Shown one piece after another: positions 11,765 to 40,099 of a stretch of DNA of 44,849 nt. The position numbers and the translations under genes were made by a program. Every line of letters starts with the position of its first letter. Position 1 is the first letter of the stretch. The notes below the pieces were generated by a model that was given only the letters and a program-made list of their open reading frames with translations, was not told the origin of the DNA and made no database searches. This DNA comes from Escherichia phage EC115. The DNA is taken from sequence record NC_073080.1; one strand, given 5' to 3'.

Positions 11765-12076
11765 GCGGGACAGGCGGGACGTCCCGTTTTGTCCCGCCAC
11801 CATTAAACCGCATATATACTCACTTTCATTGCATAAACTAAAAGCGGGACAGGGGTGCTGTCCCGATCTGTCCCGCCCCTCAAAAGTGAATGGCTATGCG
11901 GTTTTTCTGCATAAAACAAACGGGACAGAAAGCGGGACAGAATGAGGCGGGACAAAGCGGGACAGCACCCCTGTCCCAGTCAGTGCTGCCGCTGGTTTTA
12001 GCCGATCGGGACAGGCGGGACAAAGCCCAGTCTTTCAGACTAGACGGGGGTCAATGGCCCCCCTCGTCTGAGACTG
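11765..12076. repeat. Iteron array: about 13 copies of GCGGGACA(G/A) in both orientations plus a ~48 bp imperfect palindrome
   Basis: Direct and inverted GGGACAG copies, including GGGACAG-N5-CTGTCCC and GGGACGTCCC palindromes; ends with AGTCTTTCAGACTAGACGGGGG-N7-CCCCCCTCGTCTGAGACTG; 33-mer shared exactly with the array at 39942-40099. Confidence 0.75.
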
Positions 12077-12144: not shown

Positions 12145-14787
12145 ATGGCAGATCAGGCAGCGGGCATCACGCTCAAGGCGGACGTCGCGCAAATTAAAAC
12201 GGCTAATACTGTGCTGGACACATTCGCGCAGAAATCCGAGAACACAGAACAGAAAGTAAAGAAATTAAACGACACACTCGGCAAGTCGAAAAAGGTTACT
12301 GGCGACGCCGCGGGCGGAATGGAAAAGTTAGCGACTGAATCGCAGCGCGCCGCCGACGGCATGACGAAACAGGAGCGACTAGCCAGCCGATTAGGCATGT
12401 CGACCAAAAACCTGGGATTTGCTTCACGGAACGCGGCATTCCAGTTACAGGATATTGCGGTAACGCTTGAGATGGGTATGCCGGTGCACCGCGTCATGCT
12501 TCAGCAGTTACCACAGCTAACCGGCGCATTCGGCGGATTAGGTAACACGCTGCGTTATGTTGCGGGCTTCCTCGGCCCAGTAGGGATCGGACTTGCGGCA
12601 GTAACGGCGACGTTAGGCGTGGGCGTGGCAATCACGTCACGGGCAGAGAACCAGGTAGCCGCGCTTAATAAGACGCTGGCGCTGTCCGGTAATATTTCAG
12701 GCCTCACAGCTAACCAGATCCTTGTGCTGTCCGAGAACGCTGAGCGCATGGGCGGGTCATTTCGCAAGACGCGTGACACAATCCAGGCGCTGGCGGCGGC
12801 GGGTGTGAAAGCGGGTGGTGACTTCGGCGCATTGGCTAAGGTAGTTAATGACTTTGCGAAGGTGTCCAGCCAGCCGATCGAGGATGTGGTGGCGGCGGTG
12901 GCGAAGCTGTCAACCGACCCCGTTGGCGGACTGCGTGCGCTGGCGGATAAGTATCACGTCGTAAACGAAGCGCAGATCCAGCAGGTACAGTCGCTCGTTG
13001 ATGCGGGTCGTGAGACAGACGCAGTTGCGTTGGCTAACAAAACAGCCGCTGCGTCGTTCACCAGTATGACCAATGAGATCAAGGCGAACATGGGTACGCT
13101 TGAGCGATCTATGAACGTCGTCACATCGGCAGCCAAATCAATGTGGGATGCCATCCTGGATGTGGGCCGCGCGCAGTCCTCCAATGAGTCCGAGATGAAA
13201 GCGCGCGAATCACTACAGCGCATGACCACGGCTTACTATGCCGAGATGAAAGCGGTAAACGCTGCCGGTGGGGTAATGACTGAAGCGCAGAAAGCACGTA
13301 TTAACATGCTTTACAGCGAACTGGTCGCCCAGGAAAAAGTGGTGGCGTCGCTCACCCTGCGTAACCGTGCTGAGCGAGACAACGCCCGCGCCGCAGACGA
13401 ATCCGCAAAGGCGAACGAGGAGGCCAACCGCACTGCCCGTGACCGCGCCGCGTTCGAGAAGGAATACGCCACCAACGCTAAGAAGCGCGCCGACGAGATC
13501 GCCCGCCTCAATTTGCTGAATAAGCGCGGCGTTATTGATGAGAAAGAACTAGCCGAGGCGGTGAAGCAGGTAAACGAGCGGTACAAAGACCCAGCCCCGA
13601 AAAAGGCCGCGGCTGTTCGCGTGGATGCCGGTATGAAAATGCTGGAAGTCGCACGGAGCGAACTGGCCCAGCTTCGAGAATCCGGCAAGCAGATCGAAGC
13701 CAACGCGTCTACGCAGACCCGCACGCAACGCGCTCAAGCGGCCTTAAACAAGCTGATCGCCGACAATGAGCAGTTAATCGCTGCGAGCAAAGAAAGAGCG
13801 CTAACGGCAGCAGAAAAGCAGCAATTAGTCGAGTTCGGGCGCGTGAAGGAAGTCCGCGAGCAGATCGTCGAAGAAGCCAAATTGCTGGATGCGAAAGAGC
13901 AGCAGGTTAAGGCGCACGCGCAGATCGATGCCTTCGTTAAGAACCAGAACGCCGAACTAAAAGCCACCGCCGCGGGGTATGCGCTTTCCACTCGCGAAGC
14001 GGCAAACCTGCGCGAAGAATTGCAGCTAATTGACCGCCTGAAGCGGGTTGGCGCTAACGATACCGATATTGACAAGGCGGTGTCTAAGCTGCGAGAAGTG
14101 CAGGAAGCACAGACCGGCGCTAACGCCTCGTTATGGGATGGATTCAGTCGCGGGCTTAAGGATAGCGTGGATGAAATGGGTAACGGATATACGCAGATGG
14201 CGTCGCTCACGAAATTTACATTCAGCGCTATGCAGGACACGATGAACGAGTTTTTCGAGACTGGTAAGCTGAACGCAAAGGATATGGTTAAGTCCATCCT
14301 GAGCGAATTAATCAAGCTGGCTACCTCGCAGGCGTTCAAGTCCATCGTTAGCGCTTTCGGTGGTGACGGCGGCAAAAACGGATTGTTCGGCGCTATCTTC
14401 TCTGGCCTCACTAAGAATGCGGACGGCGGAGCGTACACAGGCGGCAATCTCGCGGCCTATTCGGGGAAAGTGGTAAGCCAGCCTACCTTTTTCAGTTATG
14501 GCGTCCAGGCGTTCGCTAAGGGCGCTGGGTTGATGGGTGAGGCTGGACCCGAGGCCATCATGCCACTGAAGCGCGGGCCGGACGGGAAACTGGGCGTTGC
14601 CGCGTCTGGCGCAGGCGGTGGTATGGTCGTGACGACTAACGTTTACACGGGGACCGGTAAGACGGACACCAGTGTTAGCGGGCCAGACCCACGTACCGCG
14701 CAGGCGTTCGGCAAGCAAATCACCGAGGCGGTGAAGTCCGAGATCGTGAAAGCGACTAAACCAGGTGGTGTACTTTACAAACGATGA
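12145..14787 (+). CDS. Tail tape measure protein
   Basis: 880 aa, Ala/Gln-rich coiled-coil with Gly-rich C-terminal region; follows G/GT and precedes the M-L-K-I-J block. Confidence 0.9.
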   Translation: MADQAAGITLKADVAQIKTANTVLDTFAQKSENTEQKVKKLNDTLGKSKKVTGDAAGGMEKLATESQRAADGMTKQERLASRLGMSTKNLGFASRNAAFQLQDIAVTLEMGMPVHRVMLQQLPQLTGAFGGLGNTLRYVAGFLGPVGIGLAAVTATLGVGVAITSRAENQVAALNKTLALSGNISGLTANQILVLSENAERMGGSFRKTRDTIQALAAAGVKAGGDFGALAKVVNDFAKVSSQPIEDVVAAVAKLSTDPVGGLRALADKYHVVNEAQIQQVQSLVDAGRETDAVALANKTAAASFTSMTNEIKANMGTLERSMNVVTSAAKSMWDAILDVGRAQSSNESEMKARESLQRMTTAYYAEMKAVNAAGGVMTEAQKARINMLYSELVAQEKVVASLTLRNRAERDNARAADESAKANEEANRTARDRAAFEKEYATNAKKRADEIARLNLLNKRGVIDEKELAEAVKQVNERYKDPAPKKAAAVRVDAGMKMLEVARSELAQLRESGKQIEANASTQTRTQRAQAALNKLIADNEQLIAASKERALTAAEKQQLVEFGRVKEVREQIVEEAKLLDAKEQQVKAHAQIDAFVKNQNAELKATAAGYALSTREAANLREELQLIDRLKRVGANDTDIDKAVSKLREVQEAQTGANASLWDGFSRGLKDSVDEMGNGYTQMASLTKFTFSAMQDTMNEFFETGKLNAKDMVKSILSELIKLATSQAFKSIVSAFGGDGGKNGLFGAIFSGLTKNADGGAYTGGNLAAYSGKVVSQPTFFSYGVQAFAKGAGLMGEAGPEAIMPLKRGPDGKLGVAASGAGGGMVVTTNVYTGTGKTDTSVSGPDPRTAQAFGKQITEAVKSEIVKATKPGGVLYKR

Positions 14788-16949: not shown

Positions 16950-17557
16950 CAACGTTTAAATTGTACGGCGTCTTAGGGCGTCGATTCGGTAAAGTTCATA
17001 AGCTGGACTGCTTCACTCCGGGCGAGGGTATTACCGGCCTGTGCGTGAAGTTACCCGGCTTACAGGACTTTCTAATGTCAGCCCACCTGGACAATATGAT
17101 GTTCAAGGTGCGCAAAGGCGACCACACGATGACCGGCTATGATGAGCTGGGTGAGTTCCACGGCAACCGCGTCGTCACCATCGCGCCGGTTATGACTGGC
17201 GCAAAAAGAGGGTTGGGACAATTGCTGGCGGGTGTCGCGATCGTAGTGGCGTCGTTCTATACGGGCGGACTTGCTACTGCCGCTTTCGGGGCTTCGGCTG
17301 CAACCGCTGCCGCTATCGGGACGGCGACGTTTTCGTTCGGGATGTCGATGGCGCTGGGTGGCGTTATGCAATTGCTGTCGCCACAACCGAAGGGATTGCA
17401 GACAAGGCAGGACGTGGATAACAAGGCGTCGTATGCGTTCGGCGGCCCAGTAAACACTACCGCGCAAGGCACGGCTCTTGGTGTATTATGGGGCGAGCGT
17501 GAGATCGGCGGCGCTATTATTTCAGCCGGAATCGTAACCGAGGACTTGAACGAATGA
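16940..17557 (+). CDS. Tail assembly protein I-like
   Basis: 205 aa with Gly/Ala-rich hydrophobic C-terminal half; overlaps the K and J genes. Confidence 0.7.
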   Translation: MAMTTFKLYGVLGRRFGKVHKLDCFTPGEGITGLCVKLPGLQDFLMSAHLDNMMFKVRKGDHTMTGYDELGEFHGNRVVTIAPVMTGAKRGLGQLLAGVAIVVASFYTGGLATAAFGASAATAAAIGTATFSFGMSMALGGVMQLLSPQPKGLQTRQDVDNKASYAFGGPVNTTAQGTALGVLWGEREIGGAIISAGIVTEDLNE

Positions 17558-20500
17558 CGATTATCTACGACGTCACAGGGCATAAAGGCGGCGGCGGCAA
17601 ACAGCACACCCCACAGGAGACGCCAGATAGCCTGCATTCGCTGGCTAAAATCCGCATCTTGCTTGCACTGGGCGAGGGTGAATTCGAAAGTATTACCAGC
17701 GCCAGCGAATTGCGGCAGCGTGTTTACCTGGACGGAACACCGATCCAGAACGCTGACCTGTCCGAAAACTTCCCTGGCGCGCGTGTGGAGTTCCGCCCCG
17801 GCACACAGCACCAGGATGTGATCCACGGATTTTCAGCGGTGGAAAGTGAGCAATCTGTCGGCGTAAAACTGGAAAACGGCACGCCGTGGGTGCGCCAGAT
17901 TAACGATACCAGTCTGGACGCTGTTCGCATTCGCATCGGCATTCCAGCCCTGTACACTAACGAAGATAATGGCGACCTGGTGGGCGGGCGCATCGACTAT
18001 AAGATAGTTGTGTATACGGATAACGCCGACCCGCGTGAGTTCAGATTCGCCGCCGTTGGTAAAACAATGTCGCTATATGAGCGCGACCACCGCATCGAAT
18101 TACCTCCGAACGTTAACACCGGCTGGCGCGTGGAGGTGCACCGCATAACGGCAGACTCCACATCGGCGAAAGTGGTTAATGATATCCGGGTGCAGTCCAT
18201 CACTGAGATTATTGACGCCCGCCTGCGTTACCCGCTAACCGCGCTGTTGTTTGTGGAGTTCGACGCCAAAGCGTTCCAGAACATCCCGCGCGTGTCCATC
18301 AAGTGCAAAGGCCGTAAAGTTCTAATACCGAACAACTACGACCCGATTAATCATACCTATTCCGGGGACTGGGACGGCACGTTTAAACGCGCATGGACGG
18401 ATAACCCTGCGTGGCACTGGTACGATATTTGTATTACTGAGCGCTTCGGCCTCGGTCGGCGTATCAAACCGCAAATGTTAAACCGGTACGCGCTCTACCA
18501 GATTGCGCAGCGCTGCGATCAGTTGGTCAGCGACGGCAACGGTGGTCGAGAAATCCGCTTTAAGAATGATATGTACATCCAGTCGCAGACAGACGCCTGG
18601 ACCGTGCTTAAGGATTTGGCGGCCATCTTCGCCGGAATGACCTGGTGGGGTAACCAGATGTTGAATATCGTCAGTGACCAACCGGTCGCGGCGGTGTCGC
18701 ACACTATCACCAACGCCTCGGTAATTGATGGGCGATTCGACTACGCATCTGGTAGCCAGAAAACGCGCTATTCCACATTCGCGGTAGCATACGGCAATCC
18801 GAAAAACCACTATGAAGATGCTATCGCAACGGGGCAACGTGTCGAACTGGTACGCCGCCATAAGATTAACCGTCTTGATATTACGGCGATCGGCTGTACG
18901 CGTGAATCTGAAGCGCAACGCCGGGGGCACTGGGCGCTAATCTCAAACCAGCTTGACCAGCAAGTTAGTTTTAAGGTGGGCATGGAGGGGTTATTCTTTA
19001 TCCCCGGTAGCGTAGTTGCGATCGCAGATACTAATATTTCTGGCGGATTCGAGACTCGTGGCGGTCGCCTGTTGTCGGACCCTGGAACGCGTACCGTGCT
19101 GAACACGGACAGCGAAATCACATTCCGCCCTGGCGATAAGTTCCTGGTACGCACCGATAGCGGTAATGTGGAGACTCGCGAGATCGCCAGCGTCAACGGC
19201 AACAAGGTTACGCTAAAAACCGCACTTGATGCCGACCCGATTCCAGACCAGCCGTTTTGCGTTGATGGCGACGATATCCAGTTGCAAAAATTCCGCATCA
19301 CCGACCTGGAATATGACGACTCTACGAGCACTTTCTCGGTGCGCGGGATTGAATACAACGATAGCAAGTATGATGCCGTTGATAATGGCGCTCGCCTTGA
19401 CCCTGGCATCTTTACGCAAGTGCCTGACGGTGTAATGAAGGGGCCGGAATCCGTGACCATCACCCCGTCGCAGATTTCATCGCAAGGCCAGCTAATCACC
19501 AACGTGGATATTGTATTCCCTCCGGTGAAGGATGCCGTGGTGTATGAAATCCAGTGGCGACGTACCAGCTTGCAGAATATGGAAATCCAGTGGGGTAACG
19601 ACTGGGTGAATATCCCACGCACGGCGTCGAACGGCGCGCACATCCCCAACGTGTTCTCCGGTAACTATCAGGCACGCGTCCGCGCGATCGGTATGGGCGA
19701 GATTTCATCTCCGTGGGTGTCGTCCGCCATCACGCCGGTGGAAGGTCGTCTCGGTGGGCTTAACGCACCAATCATCACCAACGCTATTTCGGGCCTTCAC
19801 CAGATCTTGTGGAAGTGGAACCACAACAACGCCGCTACTGATATCTCGTACACCGAGCTTGAAGTGCGCAAGACCGGTGAGACTGAATGGAAATTCCTTA
19901 CCAACGTCCCATATCCGGGGGCGGAGTATGCGCAAACATCGCTGGAGTTCGGAATTTACCAGCAGTTGCGCGCCCGTGTAGCGGATAAAATCGGCAACCT
20001 GTCGGACTGGTCGGCCCCGTTTGAAGGGCAGGTGAGTGACAAAGTTGACGAGTACATGAAGGGGCTTGATGACGAGTTCTTGACTTCCGAGGATGGTAAA
20101 CGCTTCCAGGAAGCAATCAACACGATCCCGCAGGGTATTTACGAGGCGATGCTCACCGACGCGCAGCAATTGTTCAACGCCCGCGCCGAGTACAAGGGTA
20201 TTTATGCGGAAATCTCGGTCGCGTATAACGTGGCGGCGGACGCCCACAAGGCGGTCGCTCAACTGGAGACGTTGATCGGCACGCGACTTGATGACGCGGA
20301 AGCTGCGATCCACACGTTGCAGACCGCGCAGAGCACACAGGAACAAGCGTTCGCCCAGTATCAGCAAACTGTTGCCGCTAAGTTCGGGGAACAAGAAGCC
20401 GCCATCCAGCAGGTACAAACGGCAACCGCAGACGTGGCGGGAGCGCTGGCGGAATATAAGACCCAGGTCGCTGCACAGTTCGGTCAGCAGTCCGCCGCTA

Positions 20501-20973
20501 TCGAGCAGAAGATGACGTCCTCGTTTAACCACTCTGGTGGTAGCGCCACGTATAGCCTTAAGGCTGGCGTGACACATAACGGGACTTATTATGATGCGGG
20601 TATGCAGCTTTCCGTTGTGACGTCTGGCAACGCGGTTAAATCGCGTATTGCGTTCAAGGCGGACCAGTTCTACATCATGCATCCGTCCAATGGGACGCTG
20701 TCGTCTGCGTTTATTGTGGACGGTGGCGCGGTGTATATCGACACGGCACGCATCAAGAACGCGTCCATCAACTTCGCGCAGATAACAGACACGCTGCAAT
20801 CGGATAACTACGACGGCAGCACGCGCGGCTGGCGCTTAGGGAAAGATGGAACGTTTATCAACCTGGGCACCGGTAGCGGCGGCGGGATGAAACAGACGAA
20901 CACAAGAATAAGCGTGAAGGACGGAAACGGCGTTCTCCGCGTGCAGATTGGTGAGCTTACTGGTAGCTGGTAG
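17554..20973 (+). CDS. Tail tip / host specificity protein J-like
   Basis: 1139 aa, size and position as lambda J; Ala/Gln-rich repeats in the C-terminal third. Confidence 0.9.
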   Translation: MTIIYDVTGHKGGGGKQHTPQETPDSLHSLAKIRILLALGEGEFESITSASELRQRVYLDGTPIQNADLSENFPGARVEFRPGTQHQDVIHGFSAVESEQSVGVKLENGTPWVRQINDTSLDAVRIRIGIPALYTNEDNGDLVGGRIDYKIVVYTDNADPREFRFAAVGKTMSLYERDHRIELPPNVNTGWRVEVHRITADSTSAKVVNDIRVQSITEIIDARLRYPLTALLFVEFDAKAFQNIPRVSIKCKGRKVLIPNNYDPINHTYSGDWDGTFKRAWTDNPAWHWYDICITERFGLGRRIKPQMLNRYALYQIAQRCDQLVSDGNGGREIRFKNDMYIQSQTDAWTVLKDLAAIFAGMTWWGNQMLNIVSDQPVAAVSHTITNASVIDGRFDYASGSQKTRYSTFAVAYGNPKNHYEDAIATGQRVELVRRHKINRLDITAIGCTRESEAQRRGHWALISNQLDQQVSFKVGMEGLFFIPGSVVAIADTNISGGFETRGGRLLSDPGTRTVLNTDSEITFRPGDKFLVRTDSGNVETREIASVNGNKVTLKTALDADPIPDQPFCVDGDDIQLQKFRITDLEYDDSTSTFSVRGIEYNDSKYDAVDNGARLDPGIFTQVPDGVMKGPESVTITPSQISSQGQLITNVDIVFPPVKDAVVYEIQWRRTSLQNMEIQWGNDWVNIPRTASNGAHIPNVFSGNYQARVRAIGMGEISSPWVSSAITPVEGRLGGLNAPIITNAISGLHQILWKWNHNNAATDISYTELEVRKTGETEWKFLTNVPYPGAEYAQTSLEFGIYQQLRARVADKIGNLSDWSAPFEGQVSDKVDEYMKGLDDEFLTSEDGKRFQEAINTIPQGIYEAMLTDAQQLFNARAEYKGIYAEISVAYNVAADAHKAVAQLETLIGTRLDDAEAAIHTLQTAQSTQEQAFAQYQQTVAAKFGEQEAAIQQVQTATADVAGALAEYKTQVAAQFGQQSAAIEQKMTSSFNHSGGSATYSLKAGVTHNGTYYDAGMQLSVVTSGNAVKSRIAFKADQFYIMHPSNGTLSSAFIVDGGAVYIDTARIKNASINFAQITDTLQSDNYDGSTRGWRLGKDGTFINLGTGSGGGMKQTNTRISVKDGNGVLRVQIGELTGSW

Positions 20974-21009: not shown

Positions 21010-21312
21010 ATGGCATTCGGTATCGCAACGTGGGACGCGCAAGGACGCCCAAACAACTACGGCATTAAACCGGTAAGCGTGATCGGAAGGATTCATCTTG
21101 CGGAAGGACAAAAATCAGGCGCATGGTCATTCCCTGTACCGGCGGGGATGAAGGTCGGATACGTGGTCGCACTGGATAAAGGCGCGGTCGGGCCAGGCCG
21201 CAGAATAACCGCCAGCGGGAACACTATCACGGTTTCCGCGGCAAGTGCGGTAGGTGGCGGGGTTTACTCCGCATCTGAATGTGACGTTATTGTTTTTGTG
21301 GAGCGAGCATAA
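21010..21312 (+). CDS. Hypothetical tail-distal protein
   Basis: 100 aa ORF with GAGG RBS after the J terminator; shares a G-(F)A-x-WD-x-x-G-(K/R) motif with the next ORF. Confidence 0.5.
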   Translation: MAFGIATWDAQGRPNNYGIKPVSVIGRIHLAEGQKSGAWSFPVPAGMKVGYVVALDKGAVGPGRRITASGNTITVSAASAVGGGVYSASECDVIVFVERA

Positions 21313-21986
21313 TGGCTAATTACGGCGCGTTGATTGACTTACCAAACGGCAACCCGTTTATCACGCCAGAATCGACGCCGTTTTGTCTATTCCGCCGTGT
21401 GGTTGTTGGGTCTTCGGCAAACGGCACTGCGCAGTCGGCGGCTGCCGATATTAATTTGGGTGGTGACTACCCGGCAATAGCGTTTGTGAAAACTACGCAC
21501 ACCGCCCAGCCGACCGTCGTAGGGTCTTCTCGCGTTGGTAATGTGGTGAAGGTGAGCGCCAGCAATCCATTCGGGCAAGGCTTCACGATGACGGCTTACA
21601 TCTTTGCCATATTCCCACAGACCCTTCCGCGGTGGGGCTTCGCTATTTGGGATAAGACGGGGAAGCTAGTACTTACTAATGAGAGTCGCGTACTAAGCGA
21701 TTTAGTTACCGTCGGATCTCCTGGCGCTAACGGGGGGATTAACATTGACCAGACGCTAAATGGCAGCTACGCCGTCGCTCCGGGCATATTGGGGTCTACG
21801 CTGATCCGGTTTTTTGTGCAGGGCCAGCCGCAAGTAATATCGGTAACGGCGTACACGGGGGCCAGATTTGATGGGTCGCGAACGCGTATATCAGCAGCGT
21901 CGTCGGGGAACGCCACGGGGGATGTGGTGGGGTATACTAACAACGGCAACGCGATTATGGCGATTAACACGGCCAATTATGATTGA
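21312..21986 (+). CDS. Hypothetical tail-distal protein
   Basis: 224 aa, Gly/Thr/Asn-rich, ATGA-type start overlap with the previous ORF. Confidence 0.55.
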   Translation: MANYGALIDLPNGNPFITPESTPFCLFRRVVVGSSANGTAQSAAADINLGGDYPAIAFVKTTHTAQPTVVGSSRVGNVVKVSASNPFGQGFTMTAYIFAIFPQTLPRWGFAIWDKTGKLVLTNESRVLSDLVTVGSPGANGGINIDQTLNGSYAVAPGILGSTLIRFFVQGQPQVISVTAYTGARFDGSRTRISAASSGNATGDVVGYTNNGNAIMAINTANYD

Positions 21987-21988
21987 AG

Positions 21989-22012
21989 AAAGCCCCGAAA
22001 GGGGCTTATTTG
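21989..22012. terminator. Bidirectional terminator
   Basis: AGCCCC-gaaa-GGGGCT hairpin followed by TATTTG, between converging genes. Confidence 0.55.
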
Positions 22013-22224
22013 CAGGTGGTGCTTTTGAAGTGGTCGACCGACACATACTGGAAGTTGAACGGATACCCCGCCTTGAGCATTTTGTGCCCGCTAAAGTCGG
22101 CGACACCGAACACTGGTACAGAATACTCCATACCGCTATTCATATATGTCGCGTCGCAGATTTTAGACGGCATACCGGCACAACCGGACAGAAGAACCGC
22201 ACAAATCATAATTAAAGTTTTCAT
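22006..22224 (-). CDS. Small lipoprotein, Cor-like superinfection-exclusion candidate
   Basis: 72 aa from ATG 22224 (AGGAGA RBS); MKTLIMICAVLLSGC signal peptide with lipobox; reverse-oriented between tail-tip and tail-fibre genes. Confidence 0.6.
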   Translation of the reverse strand: MKTLIMICAVLLSGCAGMPSKICDATYMNSGMEYSVPVFGVADFSGHKMLKAGYPFNFQYVSVDHFKSTTCK

Positions 22225-22303: not shown

Positions 22304-24262
22304 ATGGCAGCGGGCACACTATCCGTAACGAATAACAGCAAGGCGGTTGTCGGGGTAGGCACGACGTTTACCGCGTTTAAAGCCGGAGACTTCTTAACGC
22401 TGGTGGTGGGCCAAGTACCCTACACCGTAGCGATCGCGTCCGTTGAAAGTGCAACCGCGCTAACGCTGGTGCTGCCGTTCGACGGCCCAACGGCAACCGG
22501 CCTCGCGTGGGATGGCGTTAAGCGCGATACCATGTCGCTGGCAACGATGGGCGTTACCGTACAGGCACAGAAAGCGTTGCGCTTGATGATCGCAGATGAA
22601 AACAACTGGCGTGCAATCTTCGGCGACGCTGAAGAAATCACAGTGACGTTACCTAACGGGCAAGTTATGCAGGGCATGTCGTGGGGCTATTTGTCCTCCT
22701 TGCTGAAGGAAGTAGACCCCGTTGAGATGCGCAACCTTCAACAACAGGCCGAGACGGCGAAAAAGACTGGGGCGGAGACGGCGCGCGACGCAGCTAATAC
22801 TGCGAAGACCGACGCGCAGACCGCAAAAGGCCAGGCCGAATCCGCGCGCGACGCCGCTAATACTGCGAAGACTGGGGCGGAGACGGCACGCGACCAGGCT
22901 AATACTGCGAAGACCGACGCGCAGACCGCAAAAGGCCAGGCCGAATCCGCGCGCGACGCCGCTAATACTGCGAAGACCGGAGCAGAGAACGCTCGCAACC
23001 AGGCGCAAGGCTACCGTGATGAGGCGGAAGGTTTTAAAAACCAGATTAACCCTGCACTATTCGTGCAGAAGTCCCAAAACCTGAATGACGTTGCCGATAA
23101 AGCTGAGGCGCGCGCTAACTTGCAAGTTTTATTTGCGTCAAACTCTAACCTGGGGGCTACCGACCTCAACACGCTCAACAGCACGAAGGAAGGGCGTTAT
23201 TACCAGACCACATCGGTGAACGCTACACCAGAGCGTAACTACCCGTTTCAGGAAGCCGGTTGTCTTACCGTGTTTAAAACCGGCGGGGGTAGTGTGGAGG
23301 CTTGCATCCAGGAGTACACCACGTTTTTAAGCCTGCGTCGGTTCGTCCGTTCGCTCGCTGGGGCGGTGTGGACGGCGTGGAAGGAGATCTACCTGCAAGG
23401 GTCGTCCCCAACATACGAAAATATCGACTCGACAGGACGAGTTAGATCTGAAAAGGCATACCCAGCGTTCGAGTGGGTGTCGACGAGAGTAGCCGACGAT
23501 TTCATCGGTAAGCGAGTCAGCATTGAGAACGACACAGGCGTTAATATGTATATGTTCTTCATGCGGAAAGACACAACCGCAAACAGACGTGTCGTAGCGT
23601 TCGCAAGGCCAAACTCTACTGTTTTCCACTTCGTAGGGTATAACGGCGGGTTACCTACCGACGGCAACAGTGCGCCGTCAAATAACATCAACTTTAACAC
23701 GCAACCGCAAGGCTGGCGTCTGGTGTCCGGCGGCTGGCAAAATGCACCGCTAGCCGGTAACAATTACGGGACACTATTCACGCAATGCATGCAGGGTGTC
23801 GCGGAAGGGGATTCGAAAGACAACGGTACATCAGGCTTGTGGTATTCACAGCGATATTTTAATTCCGAGTCTAGGGTGTTCATCCGACATCAAACAAACA
23901 ACGCCGCTTGGACTGGCTGGTACGAGCTTACTAAAACAGCAGTATCGGATGAACGCCTGAAGAATGTAAAAGGTAATTTGAATGTTGAAGGTGCGCTCGA
24001 TAACATCAACCGCATGGAATTTAAAATATTCTCGTTTAAGGATGAGAAGGCCGGTAAGGGGTGTCGTCGCGGTGTTATCTCGCAGCAGATTCGCCAGATC
24101 GATAAAGAGTACACGAAGGAGATCGGCGGGTACTATCACCTCGACCAGACACCAATGCTACTGGACGCCCTAGCGGCAATTAAGGCGTTGCGTGCGCGTG
24201 ACGAGGCTAATAAAGCAGAGATTGCAGAACTGAAGGCGGCTATTGCCGAATTGAAGAAATAA
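22304..24262 (+). CDS. Tail fibre protein with C-terminal intramolecular chaperone domain
   Basis: 652 aa; conserved N-terminus, tandem Ala/Thr-rich repeats, C-terminal DERLKN-containing segment resembling self-cleaving chaperone domains of tail fibres/spikes, coiled-coil tail. Confidence 0.85.
   Translation: MAAGTLSVTNNSKAVVGVGTTFTAFKAGDFLTLVVGQVPYTVAIASVESATALTLVLPFDGPTATGLAWDGVKRDTMSLATMGVTVQAQKALRLMIADENNWRAIFGDAEEITVTLPNGQVMQGMSWGYLSSLLKEVDPVEMRNLQQQAETAKKTGAETARDAANTAKTDAQTAKGQAESARDAANTAKTGAETARDQANTAKTDAQTAKGQAESARDAANTAKTGAENARNQAQGYRDEAEGFKNQINPALFVQKSQNLNDVADKAEARANLQVLFASNSNLGATDLNTLNSTKEGRYYQTTSVNATPERNYPFQEAGCLTVFKTGGGSVEACIQEYTTFLSLRRFVRSLAGAVWTAWKEIYLQGSSPTYENIDSTGRVRSEKAYPAFEWVSTRVADDFIGKRVSIENDTGVNMYMFFMRKDTTANRRVVAFARPNSTVFHFVGYNGGLPTDGNSAPSNNINFNTQPQGWRLVSGGWQNAPLAGNNYGTLFTQCMQGVAEGDSKDNGTSGLWYSQRYFNSESRVFIRHQTNNAAWTGWYELTKTAVSDERLKNVKGNLNVEGALDNINRMEFKIFSFKDEKAGKGCRRGVISQQIRQIDKEYTKEIGGYYHLDQTPMLLDALAAIKALRARDEANKAEIAELKAAIAELKK
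22766..23010 (+). repeat. Tandem 105 bp repeat (about 2.3 copies) inside tail fibre gene
   Basis: Near-identical 105 nt units encoding a repeating 35 aa block (…ARDAANTAKT…). Confidence 0.8.
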
Positions 24263-24265
24263 ATA

Positions 24266-24291
24266 GAAGGGGCCGTATGGCCCCTTTTTTA
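24266..24291. terminator. Bidirectional terminator between tail fibre and leftward operon
   Basis: GAAGGGGCC-gtat-GGCCCCTT hairpin followed by six T. Confidence 0.65.
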
Positions 24292-24864
24292 GTTTGAGTT
24301 TTCCCAGTCCATTTTGCGCCGCACTAGCGGGCTTTCGTAATACTCCTTCCCATCCACTTCCACTAAGGGCCAGTCATTAACAATGACGTAAGGCTCTGCG
24401 ATATCCTCGATCACGCCGTGCGCGCTATGTTGTCCGAAATCTACGCCCACCAGGATAACCCCGGCAACGCGACGAGTGAGATACTCGCGAGCGCAACGGG
24501 CCTCGACCAGTCCTCGACGTATTCCGCTGGTGGCCTTAACCTCGTAGGTCCAGACGGCATCGATCACATGTTCTCGGAAGTCGGGGCCGGATTTTACCTT
24601 GCGCTTGCCGACCATGATAATATCGCCGCGGTCGATCGTGTTAGCGCTAAACAGGCCGGTACGCATTAGCAAACCTTGCGGGATACAGCTACGCCCGCCC
24701 GCCTGTCCTTCGAGGTACATGCCAGCAAACATCTCGCCCAGCACACCGACAAGACGGCTTTGCTTGCAAGCGTCGGACTTGTATCGCCACTGGTCAAACT
24801 CGATGCTGGCAATCATTGCTGCCAGGTGGAATTGTTTACCGGTTATTTCATATTCGCCGTACAT
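24289..24864 (-). CDS. Hypothetical protein (possible PD-(D/E)xK-like fold)
   Basis: 191 aa, last gene of the leftward operon; D...EVK arrangement (GDIIMVGK ... TYEVKA) loosely suggests a nuclease-like fold. Confidence 0.5.
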   Translation of the reverse strand: MYGEYEITGKQFHLAAMIASIEFDQWRYKSDACKQSRLVGVLGEMFAGMYLEGQAGGRSCIPQGLLMRTGLFSANTIDRGDIIMVGKRKVKSGPDFREHVIDAVWTYEVKATSGIRRGLVEARCAREYLTRRVAGVILVGVDFGQHSAHGVIEDIAEPYVIVNDWPLVEVDGKEYYESPLVRRKMDWENSN

Positions 24865-33131: not shown

Positions 33132-33914
33132 TTAACGGCGGCGACGTTTACGTGGCGCTTCGTCTTCGTCGTCGTCCTCATCTTCGTCATCGCGTGGCTT
33201 ACGACGTTTACGAGGTTTCTCGTCTTCGTCATCATCATCGTCATCGCGGCGCTTGGACTTTTTGGACTTGCGCGGCTTGTCGTCTTCGTCATCGTCATCA
33301 CGACGTTTTGACTTTTTGGACTTGCGCGGGCTTTCATCTTCGTCATCGTTGTCCAGGTCTTCGTCTGAGCAAGAAGAACCGCCACCGCCGAAGGCTTCGC
33401 CGTCATCGCGGAAGCGCAGACCCAAAAGACCCGCACCGAGTCCCTTGCCGTTGGTATTGTTCCACGCCCAAATGTCGAGGGACACGTTGCAATAACAACC
33501 GGAGTAGATCTCCTGGCCTTCGATCTCGTCACCTTCTACGGTCAGACCTTGTTCAGTCTGTTTCTCGCCGAGTGACGTTTGAATGTTTGGCTGCTTGAAC
33601 GATTTGGCGTTGATGTACAACATGCCTTCAAATTCTTCGGTTACTTCGTCACGCTCGTCACCGTCGCGGACTGCGCATTCCTTAGAATCCTGGGCGTAGT
33701 GCCGGTCCATCCACTTATCGGCATTCTTCTCGGATTTCAGCTTGTCGGTGAGCACTGCGCGCGCTGCCGCTTCCACTTTGTCCACCAGCGGATCTTCTTT
33801 ATCCAGAAGAATCACTGCACGGTATGCCGGTTTTTGTCCATCCTGTTTAGGGGTATCACGTTCCCAAATTTTCAGGAAACATACGCGCACATTTTTCAGG
33901 TTGACTTTAGCCAT
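33132..33914 (-). CDS. Single-stranded DNA-binding protein (T7 gp2.5 / DUF2815-like) with repetitive charged C-terminal tail
   Basis: N-terminus MAKVNLKNVRVCF... (start at ATG 33914 with GAGGA RBS; track ORF 33935); C-terminal third is three DDDDEDDKPRKSKKSKRR-type repeats. Confidence 0.55.
   Translation of the reverse strand: MAKVNLKNVRVCFLKIWERDTPKQDGQKPAYRAVILLDKEDPLVDKVEAAARAVLTDKLKSEKNADKWMDRHYAQDSKECAVRDGDERDEVTEEFEGMLYINAKSFKQPNIQTSLGEKQTEQGLTVEGDEIEGQEIYSGCYCNVSLDIWAWNNTNGKGLGAGLLGLRFRDDGEAFGGGGSSCSDEDLDNDDEDESPRKSKKSKRRDDDDEDDKPRKSKKSKRRDDDDDDEDEKPRKRRKPRDDEDEDDDEDEAPRKRRRR
33160..33340 (-). repeat. Tandem ~57-60 bp repeats (3 copies) inside SSB gene
   Basis: Repeated cgtcttcgtcatcgtcatc...gactttttggacttgcgcgg units on the plus strand. 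Confidence 0.7.
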
Positions 33915-34004
33915 TTTCCAATTCCTCATTTTCACATGTATCGGGGTTATTATGAGCCACCCCGTTCGGCTTGGTTGCTAATCTACTTGGTTGCGCCTAA
34001 GCGA

Positions 34005-39941: not shown

Positions 39942-40099
39942 GCGGGACAAAAAGCGGGACAAACAGGAGGCGGGACAAAGCGGGACAGCACCCCTGTCCC
40001 GCCCCGGATGACGCGGCCTGACGAGGAGCGGGACAGCGGGACAGCACCCCAGTCTTTCAGACTAGACGGGGGGTCTGTCACCCCCCTCGTCTGAGACTG
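39942..40099. repeat. Second iteron array: GCGGGACA(A/G) repeats plus the same ~48 bp imperfect palindrome
   Basis: Six or more GCGGGACA copies; shares GCGGGACAAAGCGGGACAGCACCCCTGTCCC and AGTCTTTCAGACTAGACGGGGG...CCCCCCTCGTCTGAGACTG with the array at 11765-12076. Confidence 0.75.

What the first reader, a model, noticed from the sequence alone, without database searches (positions are those of the whole stretch)
22766..24262. Tail fibre with tandem 105 bp repeats and a C-terminal self-cleaving-chaperone-like domain
The fibre gene carries about 2.3 near-identical 105 bp tandem repeats encoding an Ala/Thr-rich helical shaft, followed by a distal domain and a C-terminal segment (DERLKN...) resembling intramolecular chaperone domains that are cleaved off after trimerisation. 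Repeat copy-number variation and swapping of the region between repeats and chaperone are likely host-range determinants.
Basis: partly seen in the sequence, partly recalled or inferred. Interest (0 to 1): 0.4.

Follow-up and report, generated by a model that had tools for sequence, protein, structure and literature searches.

The report
Ordinary phage side fibre, self-cleaving chaperone
This is the lateral tail fibre gene of a published E. coli phage (EC115, genus Dhillonvirus): a coiled-coil stalk built from repeated heptads, a sugar-binding-type tip and a standard self-cleaving C-terminal chaperone domain, an architecture already described for this phage group.

Summary
ORF 22304-24262 (+, 652 aa) carries a 105-bp tandem repeat (22763-23004, 2.3 copies; the two full copies differ at 4 of 105 bases). 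Each unit encodes five heptads of an 'xAxTAKx' alanine-zipper. AlphaFold2 models this region as one helix, aa 139-247.

The C-terminus (aa 548-652, SDERLKN...) matches Pfam Peptidase_S74 above its curated cut-off. It keeps the Ser-x4-Lys dyad in 119 of 120 homologues. Its predicted fold matches solved intramolecular chaperones (MyRF ICA, K1F endosialidase, phi29 gp12, T5 pb1).

The tip (aa ~279-545) resembles R-type pyocin fibre knobs. No enzymatic domain or fold was found.

Close relatives (574-652 aa) differ in length only in the heptad region or at the extreme C-terminus. Other Dhillonvirus fibres keep aa 1-273 but carry unrelated tips, and a T1-like phage carries the same tip plus chaperone. 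So copy-number variation and module swapping are real.

Whether repeat number affects host range is untested, and cleavage itself is inferred.

The window is the deposited genome of Escherichia phage EC115. UniRef already labels the protein an S74-domain protein, and the BASEL 2025 paper describes this architecture for a Dhillonvirus fibre. Verdict: correct but ordinary.

The parts
22304..24262 (+). Lateral tail fibre gene, 652 aa plus stop. It is 100% identical to the 'hypothetical protein' of Escherichia phage EC115. An AGGA ribosome-binding site lies about 9 nt upstream.
22304..22708 (+). N-terminal anchor domain (aa 1-~135), beta-rich. About 150 Dhillonvirus-type phage records keep nt 1-448 at ~90% identity. 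Presumed attachment to the tail tip.
   Evidence: weak match of aa 1-73 to PDB 23gd_B 'Distal tail protein gp20' (E 4e-4)
22718..23044 (+). Alpha-helical shaft (aa 139-247). Fourteen heptads 'xAxTAKx' span aa 149-246, with Ala at position 2 in 13/14, Ala at position 5 in 11/14 and K/R at position 6 in 14/14. Presumed trimeric alanine-zipper coiled coil of about 16 nm.
   Evidence: single helix; ten-residue block mean pLDDT 76 at aa 141-150, 88-98 at aa 151-240, 81 at aa 241-250
22763..23004 (+). 105-bp tandem repeat, 2.3 copies (35 aa = 5 heptads per unit). This is the copy-number-variable part of the shaft.
23057..23122 (+). Collar motif 'KSQNLNDVADKAEARANLQV' (aa ~252-273). It is the module junction: StarDew identity ends here and IME18 identity starts here (nt 813-816 of the gene).
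   Evidence: the same N-L-x-D-x-x-x-A-R-x-N-L motif is repeated in PDB 9zd7 short tail fibre gp92
23138..23942 (+). Distal receptor-binding tip (aa ~279-546), consisting of two beta-rich sub-domains. Best fold matches are R2 pyocin fibre knobs. No Pfam enzymatic domain was found and none of the top fold matches is enzymatic.
23945..24259 (+). Intramolecular chaperone / Peptidase_S74 domain (aa 548-652). Predicted scissile bond is Val547|Ser548 and the catalytic partner is Lys553. It ends in a long helix, aa 615-651.
24265..24288 (.). GC-rich hairpin AAGGGGCC-GTAT-GGCCCCTT followed by a T-run. It looks like a bidirectional terminator between the fibre gene and the convergent downstream gene.

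Best explanation
The gene encodes the homotrimeric lateral (side) tail fibre of the Dhillonvirus siphophage EC115. It has four parts.
- The N-terminal ~135 residues dock the fibre on the tail tip.
- Residues ~139-247 form a trimeric alanine-zipper coiled coil. Its length is set by the number of heptads, and the 105-bp repeat is a recently duplicated block of five heptads.
- A short conserved 'ARxNL' collar joins the shaft to a two-lobed beta-rich tip (aa ~279-546) of the pyocin-knob type. The tip reversibly binds a surface glycan (O-antigen or LPS) as the primary, facultative receptor.
- The last 105 residues are an intramolecular chaperone of the Peptidase_S74 type. It nucleates trimerisation and folding of the tip from the C-terminal end. 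Once the trimer is correct, Ser548 activated by Lys553 cuts the Val547-Ser548 bond, so the chaperone is released and is absent from virions.

Shown here: the repeat, the heptad pattern, the domain matches, residue conservation, predicted folds, length polymorphism and mosaicism. Inferred: trimeric state, cleavage, glycan binding and attachment site.
For: Identity and context:
- PHROG 1980 tail fibre, E 2.5e-119.
- The gene is 93.5-96% identical at DNA level to the lateral tail fibre genes of Over9000, BEK2-2, TheodorHerzl and Zumzum.
- It lies after gpJ and the RBP/Cor locus.

Shaft:
- 14 regular heptads with an Ala core.
- AF2 gives one helix over aa 139-247, block mean pLDDT 88-98 across aa 151-240.

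Chaperone:
- PF13884 scores 32.7 bits against a cut-off of 22, E 9.1e-8, at aa 548-602.
- S548, D549 and K553 are invariant in 88 aligned homologues. The S-D-x3-K motif is present in 119 of 120 homologues.
- The Ser-to-Lys spacing equals that of Ser1264/Lys1269 in T5 pb1, where S1264A blocks autoproteolysis (PMC4690869).
- Foldseek: 7dc3 E 5e-5, TM(target) 0.61-0.65.
- An alignment profile hits the chaperone region of the DT57C-type L-shaped fibre 8hqz_d at E 0.0017.

Tip:
- NCBI names several homologues 'pyocin knob domain-containing S74 family peptidase'.

Literature:
- The BASEL 2025 paper describes a Dhillonvirus fibre (RuthEpting Gp29) as an N-terminal coiled coil plus a receptor-binding tip with a C-terminal IMC. 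It shows that Dhillonvirus lateral fibres mediate O-antigen crossing (PMC11990801).
- PMC8594841 makes the same point.
Against: - There are no experimental data for this protein. Cleavage, trimerisation and the ligand are inferred by homology.
- Direct sequence search of the C-terminal 120 aa against PDB gave only a marginal hit (8hqz_d, E 0.12).
- NCBIfam gave no relevant match.
- The AF2 models are monomers, so the inter-subunit 'folding sensor' could not be examined. The nearly invariant Arg528 is only a candidate for it.
- The N-terminal anchor is poorly modelled (pLDDT 34-74).
Confidence: 0.88

Rival explanations
1. The protein is an enzymatic tailspike or depolymerase, like the K1F endosialidase in which the S74 chaperone was first found. 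It would degrade a capsule or O-antigen rather than merely bind it.
Against: Pfam finds no glycosidase, lyase or esterase domain. The AF2 tip consists of short beta-sandwich lobes of about 270 aa, not a beta-helix or propeller. The best tip matches are non-enzymatic pyocin fibre knobs. The tailspike matches cover only ~85-110 residues, a size consistent with the chaperone alone, though the aligned residues were not inspected.
Confidence: 0.05
2. The C-terminal domain folds the fibre but is not released. It would stay on the virion as the distal cap, or cleavage would be partial, and it would modulate receptor access.
For: One 96%-identical metagenomic relative (P0012) has SDERLN, i.e. it lacks the catalytic Lys. 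In T5 the uncleaved form masks receptor binding (PMC4690869), so retention would have a phenotype.
Against: The window's own protein keeps Ser548, Asp549 and Lys553 intact, as do 119 of 120 homologues. Every S74 fibre examined experimentally and cited in PMC4690869 (K1F, T5, phi29) is cleaved. P0012 is a single metagenomic read-out and may be a sequencing error or a defective phage.
Confidence: 0.05
3. The 105-bp repeat polymorphism is neutral slippage or unequal recombination in a low-complexity coiled coil, or partly an assembly artefact. It would have no effect on host range.
For: Relatives with fewer or none of the near-identical units carry the same tip (94-98% identity) and were all isolated on E. 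coli. No phenotype is linked to length in the papers read.
Against: Apart from one shared 15-aa difference that separates the window from its relatives, the further length differences in the shaft are multiples of 7 aa (14, 35, 49, 63). Coiled-coil register is therefore kept under selection. Independent assemblies share the same length classes, so an artefact is unlikely. This rival concerns only the host-range claim and is compatible with the main explanation.
Confidence: 0.55

Closest known systems
Lateral tail fibres of Dhillonvirus phages: TheodorHerzl Bas14 gp27 (QXV85034.1), Over9000 gp28, BEK2-2, Zumzum; architecture described for RuthEpting Bas85 Gp29 in PMC11990801
   Same: Same gene position, same N-terminal anchor, same collar, and tip plus chaperone 94-98% identical. 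Same overall plan of coiled coil, tip and C-terminal IMC.
   Different: EC115 has the longest shaft of the 22 close relatives: 652 aa against 574-645. It has two full near-identical 35-aa units. Its first unit replaces the 'TAKNQAV' variant seen in all the others, a 15-aa difference that shifts the heptad register by one residue.
Bacteriophage T5 L-shaped tail fibre pb1 (PDB 4UW7/4UW8; Garcia-Doval et al. 2015, PMC4690869)
K1F endosialidase C-terminal intramolecular chaperone (PDB 3GW6); phi29 gp12 chaperone (3GUD); Pfam PF13884 Peptidase_S74
   Different: Those chaperones serve triple-beta-helix or beta-helical enzymatic spikes. Here the client is a non-enzymatic knob-type tip.
R-type pyocin tail fibres PA0620 / PALES_06171 (PDB 6CL5, 6CL6, 6CT8, 6CU2)
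   Different: Pyocin fibres have no S74 domain. From my own knowledge, not tested here, they rely on a separately encoded chaperone. Sequence identity is only 13-14%.
Tunavirus IME18 tail fibre (AWD90911.1; Drexlerviridae)
   Same: Collar, tip and chaperone are 80.6% identical at DNA level (gene nt 813-1901). S74 domain present.
   Different: Unrelated N-terminal anchor and a longer, non-repetitive coiled coil. The gene lies in a different genomic neighbourhood, among replication genes. The pairing shows inter-family cassette exchange.
Myelin regulatory factor ICA domain (PDB 7DC3)
   Different: It is a eukaryotic transcription factor, so the relationship concerns the domain only.

Membership tests
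Peptidase_S74 / intramolecular chaperone auto-processing domain (PF13884) | Sequence match to the family model above its curated threshold | tested here: met
   PF13884 scores 32.7 bits against a gathering score of 22, E 9.1e-8, at aa 548-602, covering profile positions 1-55 of 58.
Peptidase_S74 / intramolecular chaperone auto-processing domain (PF13884) | Scissile/nucleophilic Ser at the domain start with the catalytic Lys five residues downstream (Ser1264/Lys1269 in T5 pb1) | tested here: met
   Ser548 and Lys553 sit in 'SDERLK'. S, D and K are invariant in 88 aligned homologues and present in 119 of 120. The T5 residues are taken from PMC4690869.
Peptidase_S74 / intramolecular chaperone auto-processing domain (PF13884) | Fold: a mixed alpha/beta part, a beta-hairpin and a long C-terminal helix that forms the trimeric coiled coil | tested here: met
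Peptidase_S74 / intramolecular chaperone auto-processing domain (PF13884) | Placement at the extreme C-terminus of a trimeric phage fibre or spike | tested here: met
   The domain occupies the last 105 of 652 residues of a protein matching PHROG 1980 tail fibre.
Peptidase_S74 / intramolecular chaperone auto-processing domain (PF13884) | Upstream Arg from a neighbouring subunit acting as folding sensor/oxyanion hole (Arg1250 in T5) | tested here: inconclusive
   Arg528, 20 residues before Ser548, is conserved in at least 90% of homologues. Only monomer models were available, so its position relative to the scissile bond could not be checked.
Peptidase_S74 / intramolecular chaperone auto-processing domain (PF13884) | Actual autoproteolytic release after trimerisation | not testable with these tools
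   This needs virion mass spectrometry or expression of wild type against S548A.
Dhillonvirus lateral tail fibre | Conserved N-terminal anchor and a conserved locus (after the gpJ/RBP locus, before the convergent early genes) | tested here: met
   Nucleotides 1-448 are ~90% identical in most of the 154 matching phage records, which are mostly Dhillonvirus. Synteny with Over9000, TheodorHerzl and StarDew was confirmed.
Alanine-zipper trimeric coiled coil | Uninterrupted heptad repeat with small (Ala) residues at the two core positions, and a helical conformation | tested here: met
   14 heptads, with Ala in 13/14 and 11/14 at positions 2 and 5. AF2 gives a single helix over aa 139-247. The StarDew homologue scores just below threshold on Pfam Alanine_zipper (20.7 against 23.1 bits). 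The oligomeric state was not tested.
R-type pyocin fibre knob domain | Knob beta-sandwich fold in the receptor-binding tip | tested here: inconclusive

The most novel reading that the evidence does not exclude
The heptad block may be a deliberately unstable 'length dial'. Unequal recombination between near-identical 105-bp units would let a Dhillonvirus population sample fibres from ~3 to 14 heptads, roughly 11 nm of extra reach. That would match the fibre to the thickness of the host's O-antigen or capsule layer. EC115 was isolated on the wild strain ECOR20 and carries the longest allele seen, with a one-residue register shift relative to all relatives. Length, not only the tip, would then contribute to host range.
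Probability: 0.12. Interest if true: 0.35.

Novelty: already known. Interest (0 to 1): 0.12.

Why it matters
It matters little beyond correct annotation. GenBank calls the EC115 protein 'hypothetical'. It can safely be renamed 'lateral tail fibre with a C-terminal S74 intramolecular chaperone, predicted cleavage Val547|Ser548'.

There are two practical points for phage engineering.
- The 'ARxNL' collar at aa ~268-273 is a natural, already-used splice point for exchanging tips.
- Tips of this type should be moved together with their own chaperone domain.

The heptad-number polymorphism gives a ready natural series (574-652 aa) for testing whether side-fibre length affects adsorption.

Tried and rejected
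- Direct phmmer of the full protein and of the C-terminal 120 aa against PDB sequences gave only marginal chaperone hits (E 0.12 to 8hqz_d). The profile of 88 homologues improved this to E 0.0017. That profile was dominated by the Drexlerviridae-type N-terminus carried by many aligned homologues, which hit the depolymerases 7vz3, 7vyv and 7lzj and is not this protein's N-terminus.
- NCBIfam returned only spurious coiled-coil matches (MutS2, Rad50). The Pfam WEMBL match is the same kind of coiled-coil noise.
- The many 60-125-aa ORFs on other frames and the opposite strand across 22420-24173 were rejected as genes. They lie inside a strongly supported coding region, and the three over the repeat (22649-23008, 22722-23084, 22738-22998) merely echo its periodicity.
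- An enzymatic depolymerase reading was considered and rejected (see rival explanations).
- I did not use the metagenome or genome collection scans or the large representative-protein search. The phage database and one homologue search already answered the question.

Full report
**Provenance**

The 652-aa product of ORF 22304-24262 is 100% identical to a protein of Escherichia phage EC115 found on a contig of 44,849 bp, exactly the window length. The window is therefore that phage's genome. EC115 was isolated from cow manure on E. coli ECOR20, assigned to Dhillonvirus, and reported as closest to phage Over9000 (PMC9583813). GenBank calls the protein 'hypothetical'. UniRef calls it 'Peptidase S74 domain-containing protein'.

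**Observation check**

- Tandem Repeats Finder reports a 105-bp period, 2.3 copies, at 22763-23004, with 92% matches and score 412.
- Copies 1 and 2 (22763-22867 and 22868-22972) differ at 4 of 105 bases. The third, partial copy degrades quickly.
- A 63+42-bp substructure shows that the unit is built from shorter units.
- In protein terms there are 14 consecutive heptads 'xAxTAKx' over aa 149-246. Ala occupies position 2 in 13/14 and position 5 in 11/14; Lys/Arg occupies position 6 in 14/14; Thr/Ser occupies position 4 in 10/14. Composition is 30% Ala and 14% Thr.
The gene itself begins at 22304.

**What the protein is**

PHROGs places the whole protein in phrog_1980 'tail fiber protein' (E 2.5e-119). 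Megablast finds 154 phage records, almost all coliphages of the Dhillonvirus type. Only five of them cover at least 80% of the gene: Over9000 and TheodorHerzl, each present under two accessions, and BEK2-2, at 93.5-95.6% identity. Zumzum matches gene nt 517-1959 (74% of the gene) at 96.1% identity. In these records the gene is annotated 'tail fibers protein' or 'lateral tail fiber protein'.

The gene follows the tape-measure, tail-tip and gpJ genes. gpJ is at 17554-20973 and matches Pfam FNIII-A_GpJ and Phage_Tail_Tip. It also follows a small receptor-binding locus. A strong hairpin with a T-run (24265-24288) comes next, just before the convergent early genes.

**Shaft**

An AlphaFold2 model of aa 1-300 gives a single uninterrupted helix over aa 139-247. 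Ten-residue block mean pLDDT is 88-98 across aa 151-240. Together with the Ala-core heptads, this supports an alanine-zipper coiled coil about 16 nm long (109 residues at 0.15 nm each). The trimeric state is inferred from fibre biology, not tested here.

**Chaperone**

- Pfam Peptidase_S74 matches aa 548-602 at 32.7 bits, above the curated cut-off of 22 (E 9.1e-8).
- In an 88-sequence alignment whose members have widely differing tips, Ser548, Asp549 and Lys553 are invariant. All 21 invariant columns of the alignment fall in aa 548-629.
- 119 of 120 retrieved homologues keep S-D-x3-K.
- The Ser-to-Lys spacing equals that of Ser1264/Lys1269 in T5 pb1. There, S1264A abolishes autoproteolysis and the chaperone is released after cleavage of Thr1263-Ser1264 (PMC4690869).
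- Foldseek agrees: 7dc3 E 5e-5, TM 0.61-0.65 on the target.
- Against predicted viral structures the top matches are S74-domain tail fibres.

Cleavage at Val547|Ser548 is therefore a well-founded inference, but it remains an inference.

**Tip**

The BASEL papers argue that Dhillonvirus lateral fibres bind O-antigen glycans as a facultative first receptor, while the central fibre binds a porin (PMC8594841; PMC11990801). The ligand of this particular tip is unknown.

**Copy-number variation**

Among 22 relatives that are 91.5-98% identical, lengths are 574, 588, 602, 623, 631, 637, 645 and 652 aa. Every length difference falls within aa 148-226 or is an extra 8 aa at the extreme C-terminal coiled coil.

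Relative to the commonest 637-aa form, the shorter alleles lack 14, 35, 49 or 63 aa. All of these are multiples of seven, so the coiled-coil register is preserved. EC115 is the only 652-aa allele. Where the others have 'TAKNQAV', its first unit is a near-perfect copy of the second. The resulting 15-aa difference equals two heptads plus one residue. TheodorHerzl has none of the near-identical units (only ~3 diverged heptads), yet its tip is 95% identical. This argues that repeat number does not set specificity.

**Modularity**

- Most Dhillonvirus records share only gene nt 1-448, the anchor.
- StarDew and Sponge share nt 1-816. StarDew then continues with an unrelated tip (Pfam PF25670) and has no S74 domain.
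- The T1-like Tunavirus IME18 has an unrelated anchor but shares nt 813-1901, i.e. collar, tip and chaperone, at 80.6% identity.
- The junction is therefore the conserved 'ARANL' collar at aa ~268-273.
- In the exchanges seen here, the S74-type tip moves together with its chaperone (IME18), while StarDew carries a complete tip that has no S74 domain.
- Many other homologues share only the chaperone (24-36% query coverage at 44-69% identity). The chaperone is thus also the most conserved element across different tips.

**Comparison with what is known, and novelty**

Every element is standard. The S74 intramolecular chaperone was established structurally for K1F, phi29 and T5. The plan 'N-terminal coiled coil plus receptor-binding tip plus C-terminal IMC' is explicitly described for a Dhillonvirus fibre, RuthEpting Gp29 (PMC11990801). 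The sequence is public and auto-annotated with the S74 domain.

The only additions here are minor:
- the explicit heptad-unit length series among near-identical fibres;
- the sharp collar junction;
- the finding that the tip resembles pyocin knobs more than the T5 bullet.

**Verdict**

The finding is ordinary and I score its interest low.

Noticed in passing
window 11765-12022 and 39942-40043: The octamer GCGGGACA occurs 19 times in the window against 2.2 expected (0 of 100 shuffles reach 19). It is concentrated in two non-coding stretches: 8 copies before the tape-measure gene at 12145, and 7 copies near 40 kb. Both stretches also share 'CAGTCTTTCAGACTAGACGGGG'. Some copies form inverted pairs (hairpins). 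These may be regulator-binding sites or terminator clusters.
   Followed up: partly
window 21010-21312 (+), 21312-21986 (+), 22006-22224 (-): Two small ORFs lie downstream of gpJ: phrog_557 'outer membrane protein' and phrog_425 'membrane associated protein'. A divergent Cor-type superinfection-exclusion lipoprotein (phrog_1119, E 1e-27) sits next to them. The two small ORFs have the same annotation and position as the JLBYU60 proteins (annotated 'outer membrane protein' and 'membrane associated protein', next to gpJ) that PMC12309495 proposes as hidden FhuA-binding proteins. Together with Cor, this suggests FhuA as the terminal receptor.
   Followed up: partly
window 33132-33935 (-), repeat 33225-33349: This is an Enc34-type ssDNA-binding protein (PF10991, E 4.7e-31). 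Its C-terminal tail is encoded by a 54-bp x 2.3 tandem repeat. The tail alternates acidic and basic blocks (…DDDDEDDKPRKSKKSKRR…), an unusual tail for an SSB.
   Followed up: partly
window 24265-24288: A perfect 8-bp GC-rich hairpin (AAGGGGCC GTAT GGCCCCTT) flanked by T-runs on both strands lies between the fibre stop codon and the convergent 191-aa gene. It is probably a bidirectional terminator separating late and early transcription.
   Followed up: no
protein P0012 (metagenomic relative, 96% identical), position equivalent to window aa 553: It has SDERLN instead of SDERLK. It is the only one of 120 homologues lacking the catalytic Lys of the chaperone. This could be a sequencing error or a naturally non-cleaving fibre.
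   Followed up: no
window 22304-22522 (aa 1-73): The first 73 residues of the fibre align with the N-terminus of PDB 23gd_B 'Distal tail protein gp20' (E 4e-4). This suggests that the anchor domain is a module shared with a baseplate protein of another phage.
   Followed up: no
window 24289-24864 (-): The 191-aa gene convergent with the fibre gene belongs to phrog_10558 (unknown function, E 8e-120). It is conserved next to the fibre gene in Over9000, BEK2-2, TheodorHerzl, Zumzum and StarDew, whatever the fibre tip type. It has no Pfam match.
   Followed up: no
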